Source: Anolis carolinensis
Taxonomy: Eukaryota
Reading direction: 5' to 3'
NCBI RefSeq assembly: GCF_035594765.1
Contig: NC_085846.1
Coordinates: 10,899,190-10,963,189, forward strand
DNA length: 64,000 nucleotides
The position numbers and the translations under genes were made by a program. The notes beneath the pieces are model-generated. The model saw nothing but the letters and a program-made list of their open reading frames with translations. It had not been told where the DNA came from and ran no database searches. Of this stretch, positions 3,151 to 50,168 are shown piece by piece (the first letter of the stretch is position 1; each line of letters begins with the position of its first letter).

Positions 3151-3407
3151 CATCCAGGCAGGAATCAGCCAGGCCTTGAAGCTGCAAGGCTTTTCAGGGG
3201 TAATCAATTGCAACATTCACAGTTGCTTCCCACAGGCAAGAGTTCTTTCTCCCATCACGGACCTTCCACAAATATAGAAATCTCCATTGACTAGTTCTCA
3301 ACAGACTTCACAACCTCTGAGGATGCCTGCCATAGATGTGGAGGAAACATCAGGAGAGAATGTTTCTGGAACATAGCCATACAGCCCAGAAAACTCACAG
3401 CACCCCA
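3151..3407 (+). mobile_element. Penelope-like element terminal-repeat fragment with hammerhead motif at 3314-3354
   Basis: Shares the recurrent cctCTGAGGAtgcctgccatagatgtg..GAAACatcagg block with about 12 other copies in the window. Confidence 0.75.
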
Positions 3408-3959: not shown

Positions 3960-4219
3960 CCCAGAGGGGTGCCAAACCAGCCCTAAAGACCTTTCTATAA
4001 GATACCCTCCTTTCTGCCTTTCTACAGGCACCCCAAAAGGAAAGACACCCCTCAAGCAGATGGAGGGCCAAGTGGGGTCCACCTAGACACCCCCCAGGAG
4101 CCCCTTCTCCCCTCTTGCCTTACAGCATGACACCAAAGGGAAGGGAGGAGGTGCCCAAACCCTTCCCTACAACGTCCTTCACACACTTAACCTTCCAGCA
4201 CTTCTTTCCATAGAGGCCA

Positions 4220-5640
4220 CCCTTAAAGCAAGCAGCTTCCCAGCAAACTCTTCTTACAGGCACCCCAAAAGCAAGCGCCCCCAAACCCCATCCCTCCCCA
4301 CTCCTTACAGAGGCACCCCAAAAGAAAGCTTTCCTTCTGCCTTTCTTTGCACAGAGGCACCCCAAAAGAAAGAACCCCCAGCAATCCCATTCCTCCAATC
4401 TCCCCACAGATACCCTCTAACCTATCCCTCCCCATTTATTACAGAGGCACCCCAAAACAAAGCCTTCCTCCTGCATTTCTTTTCATAGAGGCCACTGCAA
4501 AGGCAAGCAACCTCCGAGCAAACTCTTCTTACAGACACTCAAATGCAAATGCCCTGAAACCCCATCTCTCCCCACTTCTGACAGGGGTACCCCAAAAGAA
4601 AGCCCCTGGCAAAGCTTTCCTCTCTCTTTCTTTGCACAGAGGCATCCCAAAGAAAAGCCCCTAGAAAAGCTTTCAGTCTGCCTTTCTTTGCCCAGAGGCA
4701 CCCCAAAAGAAAGCACCCCCTCTTCCCCCAGATATTCCCAATCCCACCCCTCCCTACTTCTTACTGAAGCACCCCAAAAGGAGGCCCCTGGCAAAGCTTT
4801 CCTTCTGCCTTTCTTTGCACAGAGATACCCCAAAAGGAAGCATCCCCCAGCAAGCCCTTTCCTCCAATCTCCCCCAAGATCCCCTCTCACCTGTCCCTCC
4901 CCATTTCTTACAGAGGCACCCCAAAAGAAAGCCCCTGGTAAAGCTTTCTTTCCACCTTTTGCACAGAGACACCCCAAAAGAAAGCACCCCCAGCAAGGCC
5001 TTTCCTCCAATCTCCTTCCATATACCTATTACTCCCCACTTCTTCCATGGGTCTTGCCAAAATGAGGCCTTCAGCAAAGCCTCCTTTTCGCAGGGATTTT
5101 CCCAAAAGAAAGCACCTTAGGAAGTCCTTTCTTCCATATATTCCCAAACCCATCCTTCCCCACTTCTTATAGGAGCACCCCAAAAGAAAACCCCTAGCAA
5201 AGCTTTCCATCTGCCTGACTTTGCACAGAGGCACTCCAGAAGAAAGCACCCCTTTCCTCCGATCTTCCCCATGATATTCCGTAACCCATCCCTCCCCACT
5301 TCTTCCAGGGGTCCCCCCAAAAGGAGGCCTCCAGAAAAGCCTGCTTTTCGCAGAGATACCCCAAAAGAAAACACCCCAGGAAGCCCTTTCCTCCATATAT
5401 TCCCAAACCCATCCCTCCCCACTTCTTATAGGAGCACCCCAAAAGAAAACCCCTAGCAAAGCTTTCCATCTGCCTGACTTTGCACAGAGGCACTCCAGAA
5501 GAAAGCACCCCTTTCCTCCAATCTTCCCCCAGATATTCCGTAACCCATCCCTCCCCACTTCTTCCAGGGGTCCCCCCAAAAGGAGGCCTCCAGCAAAGCC
5601 TCCTTTTGGCAGAGATGCCCCAAAAGAAGCCCTGCCTTGT
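4220..5640. repeat. Complex C-rich minisatellite in LPCAT4 intron 1
   Basis: Recurrent gcaccccaaaagaaagc core. Near-identical higher-order blocks start at 5141 and 5400 (259-bp offset). Confidence 0.85.
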
Positions 5641-6390: not shown

Positions 6391-7228
6391 CAGGGGTCCT
6401 CAAACTTTTAAAGTAGAGGCCCGATTCACAGTCTCTCAGACTGTTGGGGGCCCGGACTAGGATGAAATAGTCCAAAATTAGGAGTGTGGTTGTTGTTGTG
6501 TGCCTTCAAGACGTTTCAGACTTAGGTCCACCCTCAGTCTAAAGTTTAGGACAGAGGCCAGGTCAAGGACCGTGGAGGGCCTTCATTCGGGGACCCCTGA
6601 TCTACATAGATGATCTCATAAGACCATAAGTAAGCAAAGAGACCTGCAAAGACCATCTAGATGGTTTCATAAGACCATACGTAAGGAAAGGGGGCCCCAA
6701 AGGCCATCTACATGATCTCATCAGGCTATCAGAAGACCATAGGTAAGGAAAGGGACCCTCAAAGACCATTTAAATGGCTTCATAAGACCATAGGTAAGGA
6801 AAGGGACCCTCAAAGACCATCTAGATTGTTTCATAAGACCATAGGTAAGGAAACGGATCCTCAAAGACCATCTAGATGGTTTCATAAGACCATAGGTAAG
6901 GAAAGGGACCCTCAAAGACCATCTAGATGGTTTCATAAGATCATAGGTAAGGAAAGGGATTCTCAAAGACCATCTAGATGGCTTCATAAGATCATAGGTA
7001 AGGAAAGGGACCCTTAAAGGCCATCTAGATGGTCTCATAGGACCATAGGTAAGGAAAGTGACCTCCAAAAGCCATCTAGACGATCTCATAAGACCATAAG
7101 TAAGCAAACAGACCACCAAAGACCAGGTAGACTTAGGTCAACCCTAAGTCTAAAGTTTAGGACAGGGGCGAGGAAAATGAATTTGGAGGGCCACATCCGG
7201 CCTACGGGCCTTAGTTTGGGGACCCCTG
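6391..7228. mobile_element. hAT non-autonomous element carrying a tandem array
   Basis: TIR CAGGGGTCCTCAAACT / AGTTTGGGGACCCCTG. Perfect 8-bp TSD ttccagag (6383-6390, 7229-7236). Confidence 0.85.
6600..7128. repeat. 51-bp minisatellite, about 10 units
   Basis: Unit cataagaccataggtaaggaaagggaccctcaaagaccatctagatggttt; successive units start at 6781 and 6832. Confidence 0.9.
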
Positions 7229-8702: not shown

Positions 8703-9306
8703 TTTTTATTTATATCCCACTTTATCTCCCCTAAAGGAGACTCAAAATGGCTTGACAGAAAAGCATGAGCACAGAATTTAAAATCTGCCTATCTATATAC
8801 ATCTATCTATCTTCTATCTATACACTATAATAAAAGTGGAAATCTGTATGTGTGCATGTGGTAGGGGTGTCCATTTATACAGACAGCCTCCAGCCTCATT
8901 GGCAACTTCCCATCCAAGAACTAATCAAAGCTGTACCTGTTTAGCTTCCCTGTCTTTTATTGCTCTTTGTCTGGCATTGTCTTAGCCTTTCTTCCCACGT
9001 AGAGGGATTCCAATTCAGACACACATGATCTAGATTGAAGTTAATGCAGTTTGGCACCATTTAATGCACTTTAAACGGCCATGATTCAATGCTATGGAAT
9101 GATAGGGACTGTGGTTTTGCAAGGTCTTTAGCCTTCTCTGCCCAAGATTCCACTGCATTGAGCCATGGCAGTTAAAGTGATGTCAAATTGCATGAATTAT
9201 ATCGTGCAATACACTGTAGAATGAATGCAGTTTGACACCTCTTTAACTGCTATGGTTCATGACTATGGATTCTTGGGAGCTGTAGTCCTACAAGGTCTTT
9301 AGTCCT

Positions 9307-9549
9307 GAGTTGCTGTGAGTTTTCCAGGCTGGATGGCCATGTCCCAGAAGCATTCTCTCCGGATGTTTCACCCACATCTATGGCAGGCATCCTCAGAAGT
9401 TGTGAGATCTGTTTGAAACCTCACAACCTCTGAGGATGCCTGCCATAGATGTGGGTGAAACATCAGGAGAGAATGATTCTGGGACATGGCCATACATCTC
9501 GGAAAACACAGCAACCCAGTGATTCCGGTCATGAAAGCCTTCGAGAACA
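9307..9549. mobile_element. Inverted pair of Penelope terminal fragments with two hammerhead motifs
   Basis: Minus copy about 9307-9406; plus copy about 9419-9549 with the motif at 9427-9467. Confidence 0.8.
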
Positions 9550-10814: not shown

Positions 10815-11276
10815 AGTTCAGATTAAAAGACAAAGTGAATCTTCTTCCCTGCATTGATATACATGCCAACAGCCACCAAAAGATAGTGATCTATTTTAGT
10901 GAGTCTGATCCATTTTGACGCTAGCTGACCTCTCCCCATGGCCTGTATTTTTTGCTGAGCTCTGCCATTTGTGCAATGCTAGCAGTGCTGAAACTGCAAT
11001 ATTGTGAGCACAGGGACAACAACCAGGTGTCATAGCTACACACAGTGCCAGAGCCCTAGAGCATTCTCTGAAACAGACAATCTATATTATGTGCTGGTCA
11101 CATAGACCTCAAATATGTGCATTAGATTTTCCTCGTGCACATTTTGTCACTGTCTGCATAACTCAAAGGTTCTGCTGAAGACTGATGCTTGGAATAAACT
11201 TTATTTATCCCAACTAGTAGTACTGTGAGTAGGTTGGACTGAAAGTGGTGCTGGAATTTGGTGGATGTTTTAGGCA

Positions 11277-12066
11277 TGTTGCTGTGAGTTTTCCAGGCTG
11301 TATGACCATGTTCCAAAAGCATTCTCTCCTGATGTTTCACCCACATCTATGGCAGGCATCCTCAGAGGTTGTGAGGTCTGCTGCAAACTAGGCAAGTGAA
11401 GATTATATATCTGTGGACTGTCCAGGGTGGGAGAAAGAACTCTTGCCTGTTTGAGGCAAGTGTGAATGTTGCAATTGGCTACCTTGATTAGCATTGAATA
11501 GCCTTGCCGTTTCATAGCCTGCCTGCGGGAATCCTTTGTTTGGGGGGGGGGGGGGGGGTGTTAGCCAGCCCTGATTTTTCCTGTCTGGAATTCCGATGTT
11601 TTTGAGTGTTGCTCTTTATTTGTGTTGGCCAGCTAACAAAGGATTCTCCCAGGCAGGAAGCAGCCAGGCTATGCTGCTGAAGGCTATTCAATGTTTATCA
11701 AGCTGGCCAATTCCAACATGCACACTTGTCTCAAACAAACAAGAGCTGTCGAAGGCTTTCATGGTCAGAATCACTGGGTTGCTGTGAGTTTTCTGGGCTG
11801 TATGGCCATGTTCCAGAAGCATTATTTCCTGACATTTCACCAGAGTCTATGGCAGTCCGGAAGCCTCACAGCACCCCAGACAAGAGTTCTTTCTCCCACC
11901 CTGGACATTACATAGATATATAAACTTCACTTGCCTAGTTTCCAACAGACTTCACAACCTCTGAGGATGCCTGCCATAGATATGGGCGAAACATCAGGAG
12001 AGAATGCTTCTGGAACATGGCCATACAACCTGGAATACTCACAGCAATCCAGTGATTCCAGCCATG
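11277..12066. mobile_element. Cluster of Penelope fragments in both orientations
   Basis: Hammerhead motifs at 11328-11368 (-) and 11958-11998 (+). Confidence 0.8.
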
Positions 12067-13849
12067 TTGTTTTCTTACCTTCCTGCTCCATTTCAGGGCT
12101 CACTCCAGGTTCATATTTCAATAGGGAAATACAGTAGGGCTAATATTTCATTGCAAATGGCAGCACCATGCAAAAGCCCAATAAAACCCTGTATCATTTG
12201 ATTCTGAAGGAGTTATAGAATGAATTGTAGCATTTCAAACTAGTTTTGGGGAGGCATCACATTTTTGATGCCACTGCTACTTTAAAAACTTCCCTTTAAG
12301 GAGAAATCTAGCTCAACAAGGAATTGACCTTTCCTCTGATCTGCTAGATTTTTAACTGTGGGGATGTTCATTTTTATTTTAATACAGCAGAACACTTAAA
12401 AATGTGTATCCTTCCCATTCTGGGTCCTGAACTGGTCCCAATCTATTATTTCACTTTATTTGATCTTCGTATATCCTAAAATCTATGAGAATTTCACAGC
12501 AGATGGATAAGGCCACTTATATGGCAGAAAATTGATTTTATATCATGTAACATTAAGGGACCTGCACCATTTCAGATACAATGTGGAACAAATCACATTT
12601 TTGGGATGCTCCCTCCCCTTTAAAAACACTTTCTATGCAAGTAGAAAACTAGCACTTCAGGAAACAGACACAGCCAGAAAGCTTGCCTTCTTGAGATGCT
12701 TAAAGATAACCTTTAAAGGATGTTTTCTTCCTCTCTTTCGACACAAGAGAACTGTTTAACCACAGCACTGGCCATCTGCAGTCTGAAACTGCTGCATCTC
12801 GGGCATCCGTCGCCCGGTTTTGCGGCACCCATAGATCATGTCTCCCATGATGACGACGACGTTAAAAAGGCATCGCCTCAGACAAAAGCCACAGCACAAT
12901 GCAATAATGTATTGCACAGGCAGATTGAAAGCACCACGGAATCAATAAAGCCGCAAAAAGAACTCCTCAGGGTATGCGATGCTCTTCTGGTGTGAACGCA
13001 AAGCGGATCCTTGCTTGGTAAGTGCCAGAGGCTGACTGGAAACCATTTCCGAGCTTCCTGAAGGGAGGGCTAATGAATAAAGTCTTTAGGAGGTAACACA
13101 ATCCAGTGAATAAAAATCAAGTGCTTATTCAGTCTGTGCTAATGTATTGTACACTGGCCTGAACTTATGGATGCTTGCTCGGAAAGGGGAAAGAGTGACC
13201 CATAAACTCCATGTGGCAACTCTATTCTTACAGCCTTCAGGATACCCTCCATTGAAAGCCTTAATTTTAAAAAAAAATTGTGTCAGAAGCAATTTTTTAA
13301 AAAATATTTTATTTACGCTTTTCCAAATACATAAAAAAGAAAACAGAACCCCACATACAAAACAAAAAAAAACACCCATTACCCATCCCTGACACTTCCA
13401 GTTCTCCAGCATTACATCCTCATATTTTCTTTATAATGGCATATGATCACTCAAAGCCCTTGATATTCTTATGAATATCAAAGATATCTGTTTTTTTCCT
13501 TGGCGGAATATTCTGAGGAATTCCTTGTGTGAGTAGGTCCATATTCCTTATGTCTAATATTTTCAAAGTCAATTTCTCCACCTTAGGAGCTTCCTGCATC
13601 TTCCACACTTTAGCTAGACAGATTCTCGCTGTGGTGGTCATATATGTAAACAGTCTTTCTGTATTTAAGTCCATCTGAAAGTCCGTTATTCCTAACAGAA
13701 AATACTCTGGTTTGATCTCAAACTTAATCTTTAGTAGTTTCATCATTACTTTATGAATATCACGCAAGTATTCCTTAACCTTTTTACACTTCCACCACAT
13801 ATGCAAAAAATCACCTTTATGCTTACCACACTTCCAACATTTCCCATCC

Positions 13850-13954
13850 ATACCTCACAACCTCTGAGGATGCCTGCCATAGATGTGGGCGAAACGTCAG
13901 GAGAGAATGCTTCTGGAACATGGCCACACAGCCCGAAAGACATACAACAACCCT
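13850..13954 (+). mobile_element. 105-bp Penelope-derived insert, mostly a hammerhead ribozyme
   Basis: 11-bp TSD atttcccatcc (13839-13849, 13955-13965); splits L1 ORF2 at DGK. Confidence 0.85.
13861..13901 (+). ncRNA. Minimal type I hammerhead ribozyme motif, intact core
   Basis: CCU-CUGAGGA-U-GCCUGC(cauagau)GUGGGC-GAAA-CG-UC-AGG: stem I, stem II, palindromic ACGU stem III, GUC cleavage triplet. Confidence 0.8.
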
Positions 13955-14151
13955 ATTTCCCATCCCCTTTCCCCTTACTAAATTTCGCTAACCTTTCCGG
14001 TGTCAGGTACCATCTGTAGAAGATCTTGTACCAATTCTCCTTTAATTCCGCCGCATATGTGAATTTAAGCTTCTTCCTCCATACCTTTTCCCACTCACTA
14101 AACATTATATGTGCCAGAAGCAAATTGAGGGTACAATTATAATGCTTAAAA

Positions 14152-31819: not shown

Positions 31820-32031
31820 TTTGTTGTCAAAGGCTTTCATGACCGGAATCACTGGGTTGCTTTGAGTTTTCCGGGCTGTATGGCCGCCATGTTCCAGAAG
31901 CATTCTCTCCTGATGTTTTGCCTACATCTATGGCAGGCATCCTCAGAGGTTGTGAGGTCTGTTGGAAACTAGGCAAGTGGAGAGAATGCTTCTGGAACAT
32001 GGCCATACAGCCTGGAAAACTCACAGCAACC
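31820..32031. mobile_element. Penelope fragment with internal inversion
   Basis: 11-bp TSD cagtttttctg; decayed hammerhead motif at 31909-31949 (-). Confidence 0.8.
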
Positions 32032-32138
32032 CAGTTTTTCTGCTGTTAACACTACGTAATAAAATTTTTAAAATGTTATGTTTCTGGTTTGAAAGTGTTA
32101 TTTCCTATTTAATTGTGCAGTCCTTTCTTGGAAAGTAG

Positions 32139-33803: not shown

Positions 33804-36278
33804 AGCTAGTAGCTAATGAACAGTTTCAAAAAAACTAGTTATGGAGGATATCTAGCCCTGGTCAACATCTTAATTGTAGCATTTTTAGACCTGTTGCTTT
33901 TTTCAAACAATTTCCAAAGGCATTCCACACTTTTTTAAAGTGTCTATTATTTGCAAATCAGGTCCCTCCCCAGAAAGTGGTGTAACTGAATGTCTTCAAG
34001 GACTTGGGAAGGTGGAAAGAATGCAGTCAATGCACCTTGTCTTGAAATAATGTAACATAATGAACCCTTTGCTCTGCTCTGAATAGTATGAATTATCCCA
34101 AGAATATAAGAGACTGGCAATTAATCAGCATTACTGTCCTGCCATGCGTGTTCATTACTAACTATTGGGAGCTTAAGTGATGTACTCCATACTTCTTCTA
34201 GTTAGTGAACTGGATGGACACTTGGTTTGTGTCAGTCTATAGGCCTCAGTCTCTGATTTTTCCACATTTACAGGAATACTAGAACTATAAAGAAAGGTCT
34301 GTAGCTTAATGCTGAATGTGATGTCAACTTGTGTGTGTCCTGAGCCCTTTCAGATGGCTTATGGATGGCAGCCCGGAGTAAAACTGAAAGCTACCAGAGT
34401 CTTAATTCCATGAGGTTGATCCAGAGAAGTTCCCAACATATACTGTACCTTAATTTTATGCTGTCATATTTCTAGAGTGATCAGGGTGTACTGTTTTAAG
34501 GCATTAAAGCTTGTCAAATGGATGTTGATAGTTCAGGATGACCCAATGATTGCCTCCATAAGATGTTGTTGTTTGTCTTCAAGTGAGGACCTATGGTGAA
34601 CTTATCATGGGTTTTCTTGGAAAGTTTTGTTCAGAGAGGGATTGCTTTTGCAAAGGTGTAGCTAGTGGTGACATCTTTTTGGTTTTTACATAAGATCAGG
34701 CAAACACTCAAGGCTGGTTTTGTGTCCATTGACCCCTTCAGATACCTTAGATTTCTGGTTTCCTTGCCATTCTCCAAATTGCTTCTCTTGAAAGCCTTTA
34801 ACAATTTACCTTACGAGTAAGCTCCACTGTTAATATATTTTATAATACTAGAAGTAAACTTCCAGTTATGTTTTATTTCCATTTCTGATAATTTTTTATC
34901 ATTTGTGTAGTCCCAGAAGGAACCCAGGACATAACTTTTCTGTCTCCAACTTGCTACAGTTACCCACTCCTTGTGTGGAGAGTGCTCCAAAACCCAGTAT
35001 CAATGGGAGCTGAAGCATCTAATAGTTACAGAGACCTGAATTCTTGCTGTGGTCCTGTTACAAATCATTTTCAACTCATGGTTTCCCAAGAACGTTCTGC
35101 TAATACAAAATAGCAGCCATGTAAGCTTACGTGCAGGAATTATTTTTCCAGGAAGAGACCTATGCATGCAATGCAAACAAAAATGCATGCAATGGTTGTG
35201 TGTTGCTACAACACACCTATGCTTTTCACTTGGCGTGAGAATGTACACACAAGCTGTGATCCTTAATATCACAGTGACATTTAGAGGCTTCCAAACAGGA
35301 GGAAAATTTCAGCATTTGCTATTTGTCAGCATTAATACAAAACCCAAGAGTCATCATGATCTTTATGTACTCTGGAAAGTTTTATTTTCTTTTGGAAACA
35401 CTGGGGAAAACTGCATAGGTGGGGTGGAATCTGTATGATCTCCAGATAAGGAAAGACCTAGTATTAATATTATGTTTATTATTATTTTTATTTTTATTCT
35501 GCTTTTTCTCTTCGCTAGGAGACTCAGCTATATCACAATAGCGAGGGAAGGTTTCAAATGTTCTAAGGATATGTAATCTGAAGTATTGTGTGGCTTCTGG
35601 GCTGTATGGACGTGTTCTAACAGCATTTTCTCCTGAATTTCACCTGTATCTGTGACTGACAACTTCAGAAGAAAATATGACATCTGATTATTTACTTACA
35701 TGCATGCAGTTTAATGTGATGAGCAATTTTGCATTTGTTATATTCTAGTACTGAAGATAGTTCAACATTTTTTGAAAGAAATATTTTAGTCCTTTATGGA
35801 AAGGATGGGAACCATTTACTACCTTTGGATTCCAAGGTTTTATAGGAGTATAGTCCCTAATAGCTCCAGTCACCAGCCAGGGCTCAATTTGGAAAACAGA
35901 ACAGTAGAACATATAGAAAGGTTATATGACCAGTTTTAATGTGAGAATATCATCTTTGATATTTGCATCTTCTCATGACTGAAGACATTAACTTAGAAAC
36001 AATTAAAAGCAATGTAAACCTGGCATCCTCTGAAGATGCCAGCCACAGATGCAGGCAAAACATCGAGAGAAAATGATGCTAAAACGTGGCCATACAGCCC
36101 TGAAACCACACAGCACCCCAATTTAAACCTTGAAATACATATACTGTTATACTGTTATTATTGTTATTGTGTTTGCTTTATATTTTAACTTGTTTATACC
36201 TTGGGGTTTTTTTGGGCTTGGACCCATGTTAGCCGCCCCCAGTCCCTTCGAGGATATGGTGGCGGGTTAAAAAAATAA

Positions 36279-38442: not shown

Positions 38443-39082
38443 GTTGTCAAAGGCTTTCATGGCTGGAATCACTGGGCTGCTGTGAGTTTTCCGGGCTGTT
38501 TAGTCATGTTCCAAAAGCATTCTCTCCTGATGTTTTGCCCACAGCTATGGCAGACATACTCAGAGGTTGTGAGGTATGTTGGAAACTAGTCAAGTGGGAG
38601 AAAGAACTCTTGTCTGTTTCAGGCAAGTATGAATGTTGCAATTAGCCACCTTGATTAGCATTGATTAACAGAAAGGAGGAAACCATGAAAATGAACAGAA
38701 TCTGGATAACAGTATTTTAAAAAATCAAGAATCAGGACAGTAAATAAAGAACAACACTAAGAAACAGGGGAGCCAGACAGCCAATAACTAAATGTCAGCT
38801 AACACCTCCCAAATAAAGGATGCCCCCAGGCACAACAGCCAGGCTTTGAGCTGCAAGGCTATTCAATGCTAATCAAGGTGATCAATTGCAACATTCACAC
38901 TTGCCTCAAACAAACAAGAGTTCTTTCACCCTGAACATTCCACAGACATATAAACCCCACTTGCCTAGTTTCCAATATACCTCACAATCTCTGAGGATGC
39001 CTGCCATAGATGTAGGTGAAACGTCAGGAGAGAATGCTTCTGGAACATGGCCATACAGCCCAGAAAACTCATAACAATCTGG
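38443..39082. mobile_element. Penelope fragment with inverted halves
   Basis: 10-bp TSD ttcaaacttt. Hammerhead motifs at 38526-38566 (-, decayed) and 38988-39028 (+, intact core GAAACGUC). Confidence 0.8.
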
Positions 39083-45712: not shown

Positions 45713-45835
45713 ATGGGTTGCTGTGAGTTTTCTGGGCTGTGTGGCCATGTTCCAGCAGCATTCCCTCCTGATGTTTTGCCCACATCTATGGCAGGCATCC
45801 TCAGAGGTAGGTCTGTTAGAAACTAGGCAAGTGGG
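45713..45835 (-). mobile_element. Penelope fragment
   Basis: Decayed hammerhead motif at 45767-45807. Confidence 0.75.
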
Positions 45836-49620: not shown

Positions 49621-49825
49621 TGTTGTCGAAGGCTTTCATGGCTGTCACTGGCTTGCTCTAAGTTTTCTGGGCTATATGGCCATGCTCCAGAAGCATTCTC
49701 TCCTGACGTTTTGCCCACATCTATGGCAGGCAACCTCTGAGGATGCCTGCCATAGATGGGGATGAAATGTCAGGAGAGAATGCTTCTGAAGTGTGACCAC
49801 ACAGCCCTGAAAACTCGCAACAACC
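49621..49825. mobile_element. Fold-back Penelope fragment
   Basis: Two opposed halves join near 49731; TSD catggatga(a)ttatg. Confidence 0.8.
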
Positions 49826-49887
49826 CATGGATGAATTATGTTTTTGTTATATAGGGAAGAGGGACAAGACCAGGAAAGATTACTCAA

Positions 49888-50168
49888 TGTGTTGTTGAAG
49901 GCTTTCATGGCTGGAATCACTGGGTTGCTGTTGGTTTTTGGGGCTGTGTGGCTATGTTTCCAAAAATATTATCTCCTGACGTTTCACCCACATCTGTGGC
50001 AGGCATCCTCAGTGGGGTTTATATAGGCAAGTGGGGCAAGTGGGGGGCAAGTATACTAGGCAAGTGGGGTTTATATATCTGTGGAATGTCCAGGGTGGGA
50101 AAAAGAACTCTTGTCTGTTTGAGGCAAGCGTGAATGTTGCAATTGATCACCTTGATTAGCATTTAATG
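49888..50168 (-). mobile_element. Penelope fragment with hammerhead motif at 49975-50015 (intact core)
   Basis: Reverse complement reads CUGAGGAU GCCUGC cacagau GUGGGU GAAAC GUC AGG. Confidence 0.75.

What the first reader, a model, noticed from the sequence alone, without database searches (positions are those of the whole stretch)
13850..13954. 105-bp retrotransposed unit that is essentially a hammerhead ribozyme
Seen: an intact minimal type I hammerhead (13861-13901) plus about 50 nt of tail, bounded by an exact 11-bp TSD and splitting an L1 ORF2 (DGK duplicated). Stem I can extend past a bulge (CUC/GAG). Known: Penelope-like elements carry minimal hammerheads in their terminal repeats. 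Inference: either an extremely 5'-truncated Penelope insertion or a member of a tiny non-autonomous, retrozyme-like family.
Basis: partly seen in the sequence, partly recalled or inferred. Interest (0 to 1): 0.7.

Follow-up and report, generated by a model that had tools for sequence, protein, structure and literature searches.

The report
Short stub of anole Poseidon retrotransposon
The 105-base insert is a letter-perfect piece of a very common, already studied lizard jumping gene (Poseidon, a Penelope-type element) and carries that element's published hammerhead ribozyme; it is not a new element, though many copies begin near the same spot, which likely marks where the element's RNA starts.

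Summary
Observation confirmed; the new-family reading is not supported. The insert (13850-13954) has a true 11-bp target duplication (three related LINE copies hold the site once) and a minimal type I hammerhead. It is 105/105 identical to positions -20..+85 (A of ATG = +1) of an intact 846-codon Penelope-like element in this genome and, by eye, to the published anole Poseidon (PAc) template (PMC11167929). The 46-nt core has 10,875 exact genomic matches. The 3' end is the tail-less of two end classes (+84, +118) that the paper ties to internal reverse-transcription starts. The paper found this ribozyme needs the element's protein and is dispensable for insertion in vitro. The unit keeps its cut site, is predicted to misfold alone, and such short units come from two subfamilies, so it is no separate retrozyme. 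But 5' ends are not random: 31 of 89 young copies start at -16..-35, next to the element's only TATA box and an initiator-like site. Likely these are complete copies of the RNA's 5' tip (about 55%; untested). Earlier scan notes saw similar pile-ups in other genomes.

The parts
13839..13849 (+). left copy of the 11-bp target-site duplication; its last 3 bases (TCC) also match element positions -23..-21, so the true 5' junction lies between -23 and -20
13850..13954 (+). insert: positions -20..+85 of the Poseidon (PAc) Penelope-like element, identical to an intact copy
   Evidence: 0 mismatches to both copies in L181; PMC11167929 Methods compared by eye
13850..13850 (+). A at -20: initiator-like base (YYANWYY) 31 nt downstream of the only TATAWA of the 2,664-bp element; predicted transcription start of the parent element
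   Evidence: motif scan on L181; start site itself untested
13853..13869 (+). 5-bp hairpin (CCUCA/UGAGG) predicted to sequester the ribozyme core in the free 105-nt RNA
   Evidence: pair probability 0.98
13861..13901 (+). minimal type I hammerhead motif of the pLTR; cut site after 13898 (+29), uncut in the template of this copy
   Evidence: PMC11167929; PMC4209133
13870..13954 (+). first 28 codons of the 846-codon element ORF; the 3' end (+85) is the tail-less end class
13955..13965 (+). right copy of the target-site duplication; begins with ATT, the cleavage motif reported for PAc
   Evidence: PMC11167929
13447..14109 (-). interrupted host: C-terminal fragment of an L1-like LINE ORF2 (zinc-knuckle region), already frameshifted

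Best explanation
The insert is a young, dead-end copy of positions -20..+85 of the Poseidon (PAc) Penelope-like retrotransposon, likely made when the element's enzyme cut the target, started copying at its internal +84/85 site and likely ran off the 5' end of the element's RNA about 105 bases later. Steps: (1) shown here: identity to the intact element, true 11-bp duplication, 3' end in the tail-less class; (2) published in vitro for PAc: cleavage of both strands at ATT-type sites, internal priming at two sites that bound the tail, ribozyme cleavage only with protein and not needed for insertion; (3) inferred: the pLTR promoter (TATA at -51, initiator-like A at -20 and -30) starts transcripts at about -20..-30, so priming at the first, cap-near copy of the start site gives a complete cDNA of only about 105 nt (or 138 nt with tail); (4) inferred: the cDNA end annealed to the target overhang through the 3-base TCC match. 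The hammerhead is a passenger: it lies between priming site and RNA start. Odds: identity as a PAc piece above 0.97; transcript-start origin of the 5' end about 0.55.
For: 105/105 identity to L181, an 846-aa ORF in tandem with period 2,664, Pfam RVT_1 E 1.6e-13 and a visible GVY..YIG motif. 10,875 exact matches of the 46-nt core; 16 other homologous segments in the window, most longer. 3' ends of 268 of 269 young non-ORF copies fall at +80..+92 (129) or +110..+127 (139), modes +84 and +118. 5' ends in 89 young copies not selected for reaching -10: 20 of 72 at risk end at -16..-24 and 11 of 52 at -25..-35 (0.031 and 0.019 per nt) against 3 of 85 at +1..+27, 10 of 41 at -36..-100 and 9 of 31 at -101..-399 (0.001-0.004 per nt) (bins chosen after seeing data). 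In the separate exact-core sample 31 of 101 rows end at -18..-21. 9 of 13 simple TSD-bounded inserts start at -16..-24 and none downstream of -16. Single TATAWA of the unit at -51, initiator-like A at -20 and -30. Long ORF-bearing copies also lose 10 of 40 between -6 and -35 and 0 of 30 between -36 and -100. A pLTR start site is published for D. virilis Penelope and Chlamys-3, and a TATA + Inr for rotifer Pen2a.
Against: No RNA 5'-end data: only assembled contigs were on offer. The pile-up is broad (-5..-35), not a single base. No consistent extra G (cap signature) at the junctions read. Most ends in the pile-up are fold-back joints whose mode at -19 coincides with a self-complementary TA, so joining chemistry shapes the peak. 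41 of 89 short-class copies and 30 of 40 long copies run on past -35, so many templates extend upstream of the proposed start. The peak is weaker in long copies (4 of 37 at -16..-24, against 20 of 72), and those were picked partly by open-frame length. 7 of the 9 TSD-bounded units come from loci brought in by a pattern that requires reaching -10. Initiator-like words occur at 0.009 per nt in the element. In 78 hits of all ages from 684 kb of mostly evenly spaced sequence the peak was less clear.
Confidence: 0.6

Rival explanations
1. Same PAc piece, but the 5' pile-up comes from an intrinsic stop or joining hot spot: the enzyme stalls after the structured hammerhead/5' hairpin region, or two cDNAs and target ends join preferentially at local self-complementary bases, on RNAs that extend further upstream.
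For: The most stable 40-nt RNA windows of -400..+118 lie at -20..+65; CCUCA/UGAGG hairpin at -17..-1; the modal fold-back joint uses a palindromic TA at -19/-18; almost all TSD junctions show 1-4 bases of microhomology; breadth of the pile-up.
Against: A stall at an RNA hairpin should leave ends at its 3' side (about -1), not beyond its 5' arm; simple TSD inserts that need no palindrome also start at -16..-24 (9 of 13); a stronger cDNA hairpin at about -345 shows no pile-up; end rate falls sharply upstream of -35 in short and long copies.
Confidence: 0.27
2. Ordinary random 5' truncation: this copy merely happened to break near -20.
For: Copies of every length exist, from +45 to beyond -700; heavy 5' truncation is the textbook state of PLEs (PMC8557442).
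Against: End rate at -16..-24 is roughly 8-20 times that of flanking zones; 31 of 48 ends within +45..-100 fall in the 20 nt at -16..-35 (p about 2e-14 against uniform, post hoc bins, arms of pairs not fully independent).
Confidence: 0.09
3. A separate tiny non-autonomous family (retrozyme- or SINE-like) that is transcribed and re-mobilised as a 105-nt unit.
For: The same unit recurs: 36 of 269 copies span -16..-24 to +80..+90, 8 of them simple TSD-bounded inserts. Animal retrozymes are proposed to derive from pLTRs (bioRxiv 10.64898/2026.07.22.740005); non-autonomous PLE derivatives exist in Chlamydomonas.
Against: No private substitution: identical to the autonomous element. The 9 short TSD-bounded units carry both states of a subfamily marker at +40 (5 G, 4 A), each also found in long copies. 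The unit lacks the upstream TATA and the +85..+172 stretch that PAc needs in vitro. It is a monomer whose ends do not match the cut site. Stem II probability in the 105-mer is 0.01.
Confidence: 0.03
4. Ribozyme cleavage defined this insert's ends.
For: A small cluster of other copies starts at +28..+30, the cut site (4 of the 7 ends between +1 and +45).
Against: This copy starts 49 nt upstream of the cut and ends 56 nt downstream of it; the paper found cleavage dispensable and no RNA reads ending at the cut; several +28..+30 joints have 1-4 bases of microhomology.
Confidence: 0.01

Closest known systems
Poseidon_Ac (PAc) of Anolis carolinensis, Penelope/Poseidon clade (PMC11167929; main text parts 1-3 of 4 read; supplementary figures are pictures and gave no usable text; the .gbk file is unreadable here)
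   Same: Sequence identical over all 105 bases to the printed template (by eye); ATG at the start of stem II; cut 26 nt after the start codon; tail bounded by two end classes; ATT at the target; parent ORF with RT and GIY-YIG.
   Different: Nothing in kind. The paper's text does not describe genomic 5' ends or a start site; its Fig. S2 (genome and RNA coverage), which I could not see, may already show the step near -20.
Minimal hammerheads of metazoan Penelope-like elements (PMC4209133; parts 1-2 of 4 read)
   Same: Short helix I, long helix II, unpaired base before stem II, G10.1-C11.1, palindromic 15.2-16.2, no loop III; mostly dispersed single motifs from truncated PLEs; monomers inactive in vitro.
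   Different: Helix I here is 3 bp (4-5 in schistosome motifs); lizards are not named in the parts read.
Animal non-LTR retrozymes (PMC7229834, passages; bioRxiv 10.64898/2026.07.22.740005, abstract and passages)
   Same: Short, non-coding, type I hammerhead, related to pLTRs.
   Different: Retrozymes are 150-450-bp tandem repeats expressed as circular RNAs with canonical ribozymes; this is a 105-bp monomer with an 11-bp TSD, ends unrelated to the cut site, identical to an autonomous element.
Complex PLE insertions with inverted pLTR and one-sided tail (PMC8557442, PMC3846280; passages)
   Same: The family forms head-to-head pairs and tandems; tail at one end only; TSDs of about 8-15 bp; 5' microhomology joins.
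   Different: This copy is the rarer simple one-armed form.

Membership tests
Penelope/Poseidon PLE (PAc) | parent element with one ORF: RT plus C-terminal GIY-YIG endonuclease | tested here: met
   846-aa ORF in L181; Pfam RVT_1 E 1.6e-13; GVY..YIG motif seen in the translation though Pfam gave no GIY-YIG hit
Penelope/Poseidon PLE (PAc) | pLTR formed by tandem arrangement, holding a hammerhead and the ORF start | tested here: met
   tandem period 2,664 with the 105-mer at both ATGs
Penelope/Poseidon PLE (PAc) | optional 30-40-bp tail, two 3' end classes | tested here: met
   129 ends at +80..+92 and 139 at +110..+127 of 269; this copy is tail-less
Penelope/Poseidon PLE (PAc) | frequent 5' truncation and head-to-head inversions, short TSD | tested here: met
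Penelope/Poseidon PLE (PAc) | sequence identity to the named family consensus | tested here: met
   105 of 105 against the template printed in PMC11167929 Methods, compared by eye; Repbase itself not available
Minimal type I hammerhead | conserved core, stems I and II, NUH triplet | tested here: met
   no Rfam model reaches E 10
Minimal type I hammerhead | self-cleavage | not testable with these tools
   published for the same sequence in a 361-nt RNA: cleaves only with PAc protein; the free 105-mer is predicted to misfold
Non-LTR retrozyme | tandem repeats of 150-450-bp monomers | tested here: not met
   single 105-bp unit with TSD
Non-LTR retrozyme | own lineage distinct from the autonomous element | tested here: not met
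   0 differences to the intact element; two subfamily states among short units; no full tree was built
Non-LTR retrozyme | expression as small circular RNA | not testable with these tools
   no raw RNA reads offered
L1-clade LINE (host sequence) | long ORF2 with C-terminal zinc knuckle | tested here: inconclusive
   relatives lie in frames of up to 1,262 codons; weak match of a relative to human LINE-1 ORF2p, E 9e-4; no Pfam hit; full ORF2 not fetched

The most novel reading that the evidence does not exclude
PAc's internal priming makes a discrete class of complete mini-cDNAs: from +84 or +118 to the capped start of a TATA-driven pLTR transcript at about -20..-30, which explains why the hammerhead-bearing tip outnumbers the rest of the ORF start by orders of magnitude; the enzyme dimer primes one target strand at +84 and the other at +118 (54 of 57 head-to-head pairs), and a minority of copies record ribozyme-cut RNA (ends at +28..+30).
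Probability: 0.4. Interest if true: 0.45.

Novelty: already known. Interest (0 to 1): 0.2.

Why it matters
As an element it is ordinary: one of tens of thousands of pieces of a family whose protein and ribozyme have already been assayed. What could matter is the junction statistics. PAc is the Penelope-like element with a reported in vitro system, and its later integration steps are stated to be unvalidated. The 5' pile-up and the near-strict +84/+118 pairing of head-to-head arms give two sharp predictions that this system can test directly, and they explain why genome scans keep finding tiny 'hammerhead elements' that look like new families.

Tried and rejected
Rfam scans of the window unit and of the intact element: no hammerhead hit at E up to 10; the library misses this minimal form. 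DNA search of the own genome with the 105-mer returned 0 because very common words are skipped; not evidence of rarity. Sequencing runs: no RNA holder listed on record, contigs only; the depth step near -23..+4 in laid contigs is confounded by subfamily divergence and copy number and was not used. Cap-derived G: looked for at junctions, G's were mostly explained by the inverted arm or the target. Spliced-RNA origin (a TAG with a pyrimidine run ends at -29): no copies seen with a constant upstream exon at that point. Ends at -27, -57 and -71 were largely artefacts of a single reference against another subfamily; redone with 8 references (which in turn sees only 400 nt upstream, so longer TSD copies drop out: 13 TSD inserts against 18). 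One search used one reference that held an inversion, which misplaced 8 rows, and 12 of its 78 hits are one tandem array. An early count of 0 long copies ending at -18..-21 did not hold with more copies (2 of 37). The bacterial promoter scan does not apply. The energy printed for a hand-drawn active fold contained one wrong pair and was not used. Sequence look-up in earlier findings: nothing. Literature searches for a described 5' pile-up or start site of PAc gave none in the texts read; subscription papers, Repbase notes and figure-only supplements were not visible.

Full report
Numbering: positions are given relative to the A of the element's ATG (+1 = window 13870), so the insert is -20..+85.

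1. Observation. The 105 bases at 13850-13954 are flanked by identical 11-mers at 13839-13849 and 13955-13965. The duplication is real: three related LINE copies elsewhere in the genome hold the site once and lack the insert, and 0 of 8,903 control pairs matched by chance. The minus-strand frame of the host reads DGK on both sides of the insert, and 9 of 9 relatives read it once before a CWKC knuckle. The host is L1-like on weak evidence (frames up to 1,262 codons among relatives; E 9e-4 to human ORF2p for a relative; no Pfam hit). The hammerhead anatomy is as described, with the cut expected after C13898; a descriptor finds 5 sites in the window against 0.01 per shuffle. Rfam does not detect it.

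2. Identity. The window holds 16 other homologous segments, most extending further upstream and many with a further 30-odd bases downstream. The 46-nt core has 10,875 exact matches in the genome. Walking upstream led to an intact tandem element (L181, period 2,664) with an 846-codon ORF, Pfam RVT_1 and a visible GIY-YIG motif; the insert matches it at 105 of 105 bases. 28 of 150 listed hits for the ORF's 5' part lie in the full 867-codon open frame, so the family is young. The same 105 bases stand, by eye, in the RNA template printed for Poseidon_Ac (PAc) of the green anole in PMC11167929 (main text parts 1-3 of 4 read). The host is therefore likely that lizard (inference). First-look candidates, which are not copy numbers, were 69,433 and 85,802 for the stretch up to +84 and +117 but 271 for +121..+240: the hammerhead-bearing tip vastly outnumbers the ORF behind it.

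3. What is published about this sequence. PAc protein cuts both strands, prefers ATT, starts reverse transcription inside the RNA at two sites that bound the genomic 'tail', and needs the RNA up to +172. The ribozyme cleaves 26 nt after the start codon, only when protein is added, and mutants that kill it insert normally; no RNA reads ended at the cut. Here 268 of 269 young non-ORF copies end at +80..+92 or +110..+127, modes +84 and +118. The text gives the second site as 111-118; that +84/85 is the first follows from its statement that the tail lies between the two sites (the figure was not visible). The insert's 3' end is thus the tail-less class, and its TSD begins with ATT.

4. Partly. In the 100 places listed (101 rows, two of them edge duplicates; pattern requires reaching -10), 31 rows start at -18..-21. 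In 89 young copies not so conditioned (84 centres of short-protein hits plus young copies from evenly spaced stretches and the window, this copy included; 100 of the 300 listed hits were fetched), 20 of 72 at risk end at -16..-24 and 11 of 52 at -25..-35, against 3 of 85 at +1..+27, 10 of 82 at -1..-15, 10 of 41 at -36..-100, 9 of 31 at -101..-399; 22 run beyond -400. Bins were set after seeing data and arms of one insertion are not independent. 9 of 13 simple TSD-bounded inserts start at -16..-24 (7 loci). Among 60 distinct ORF-bearing copies, chosen partly by frame length, 10 of 40 end at -6..-35, 0 of 30 at -36..-100 and 24 pass -400. In 78 hits of all ages the peak was blurred.

5. Not a separate family. 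The insert has no private change; the 9 short TSD-bounded units carry both states of a subfamily marker at +40 (5 G, 4 A), each shared with long copies, so they arise repeatedly from different parents. The unit lacks the promoter-like region and the sequence to +172. It is a monomer with the cut site in its middle. As a free RNA it is predicted to misfold: stem II probability 0.01, against 0.87 with the tail and 0.98 in the -126..+235 context. Retrozymes are 150-450-bp tandem units expressed as circles (PMC7229834, passages).

6. Mechanism. Shown: identity, TSD, end classes. Published: two-strand cutting, internal priming, passenger ribozyme. Inferred: the element's only TATAWA lies at -51 and initiator-like A's at -20 and -30, the usual spacing for RNA polymerase II (own knowledge); pLTR start sites are reported for D. 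virilis Penelope and Chlamys-3 and TATA + Inr for rotifer Pen2a (passages). A transcript starting there carries its first priming site about 105 or 138 nt from the cap, so priming there yields a complete mini-cDNA, joined to the target by the TCC match at -23..-21. Against this: no RNA end data, no clear cap G, a broad peak shaped by fold-back joints at a palindromic TA, and many copies passing the zone, which needs read-through or tandem templates. An intrinsic stop or joining hot spot is the main rival (0.27), random breakage next (0.09), a separate family unlikely (0.03).

7. Side result. In 54 of 57 head-to-head pairs one arm is tail-less and the other longer; two exceptions have an arm running on into the ORF, one is a complex tandem, and one of the 54 also has an ORF-continuing arm. 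A one-sided tail is described qualitatively (PMC8557442, PMC3846280); the near-strict rule fits one priming site per cut strand. Four of the 7 ends between +1 and +45 lie at the ribozyme cut (+28..+30), but several have microhomology, so this is a hint only.

8. Novelty. Already known family, already assayed ribozyme. Seven paper searches showed no description of the 5' pile-up for PAc in the texts read, but Fig. S2 of PMC11167929 is a picture I could not see and may show it. A 2017 paper on PLE hammerheads cleaving as dimers is recalled, not seen. Earlier AI notes of this scan report similar pile-ups and arm pairing in other genomes; my start-site idea was noted before that call, and those notes are not independent support. 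Verdict: ordinary stub, interest 0.2; the junction statistics are a modest, testable lead.

Noticed in passing
57 head-to-head pairs among L013-L311: 54 of 57 pairs combine a tail-less arm (about +84) with a longer arm (about +118); fits one priming site per cut strand.
   Followed up: partly
L036, G000:C1 about 3014590-3014619: The joint between two head-to-head arms holds two to three TTAGGG telomeric repeats, suggesting telomerase or template-jump addition to a cDNA end.
   Followed up: no
L009-L012 (G000:C1 1063395-1063880) and L027-L030 (G000:C1 2664493-2664884): Three-copy direct tandems of pLTR pieces with periods 220 bp (-137..+82) and 173 bp (-91..+86), each unit with TATA and hammerhead; these, not the window copy, are the retrozyme-sized candidates able to form a dimeric ribozyme.
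   Followed up: no
L131:5211-6016 (G000:C4 about 3005211-3006016): 12-copy, 67-bp minisatellite made of element positions -6..+61; lacks the natural 5' strand of stem I and most units have a changed core base.
   Followed up: partly
L201, L205, L218, L225, L244, L280, L129: Small cluster of 5' ends at +28..+31, the hammerhead cut site; several explained equally by microhomology.
   Followed up: partly
window 9306-9518, 11275-12051, 31853-32033, 35579-36120, 38473-39081, 49649-50026, 3303-3407, 45714-45818: Sixteen older segments of the same repeat (73-90% identical), several as inverted pairs.
   Followed up: partly
G000, 28 of 150 hits: Many copies with the full 867-codon open frame, often in tandems of period about 2,664; the family looks recently active.
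   Followed up: partly
L183/L208, L191, L190, L196: ORF-bearing copies show a loose cluster of 5' ends at +32..+43 (6 of 50), two with a short duplicated element stretch at the joint.
   Followed up: no
window 4194-5628 and 6607-7131: Two tandem-repeat arrays (the second with a period near 51 bp) seen in the self-comparison.
   Followed up: no
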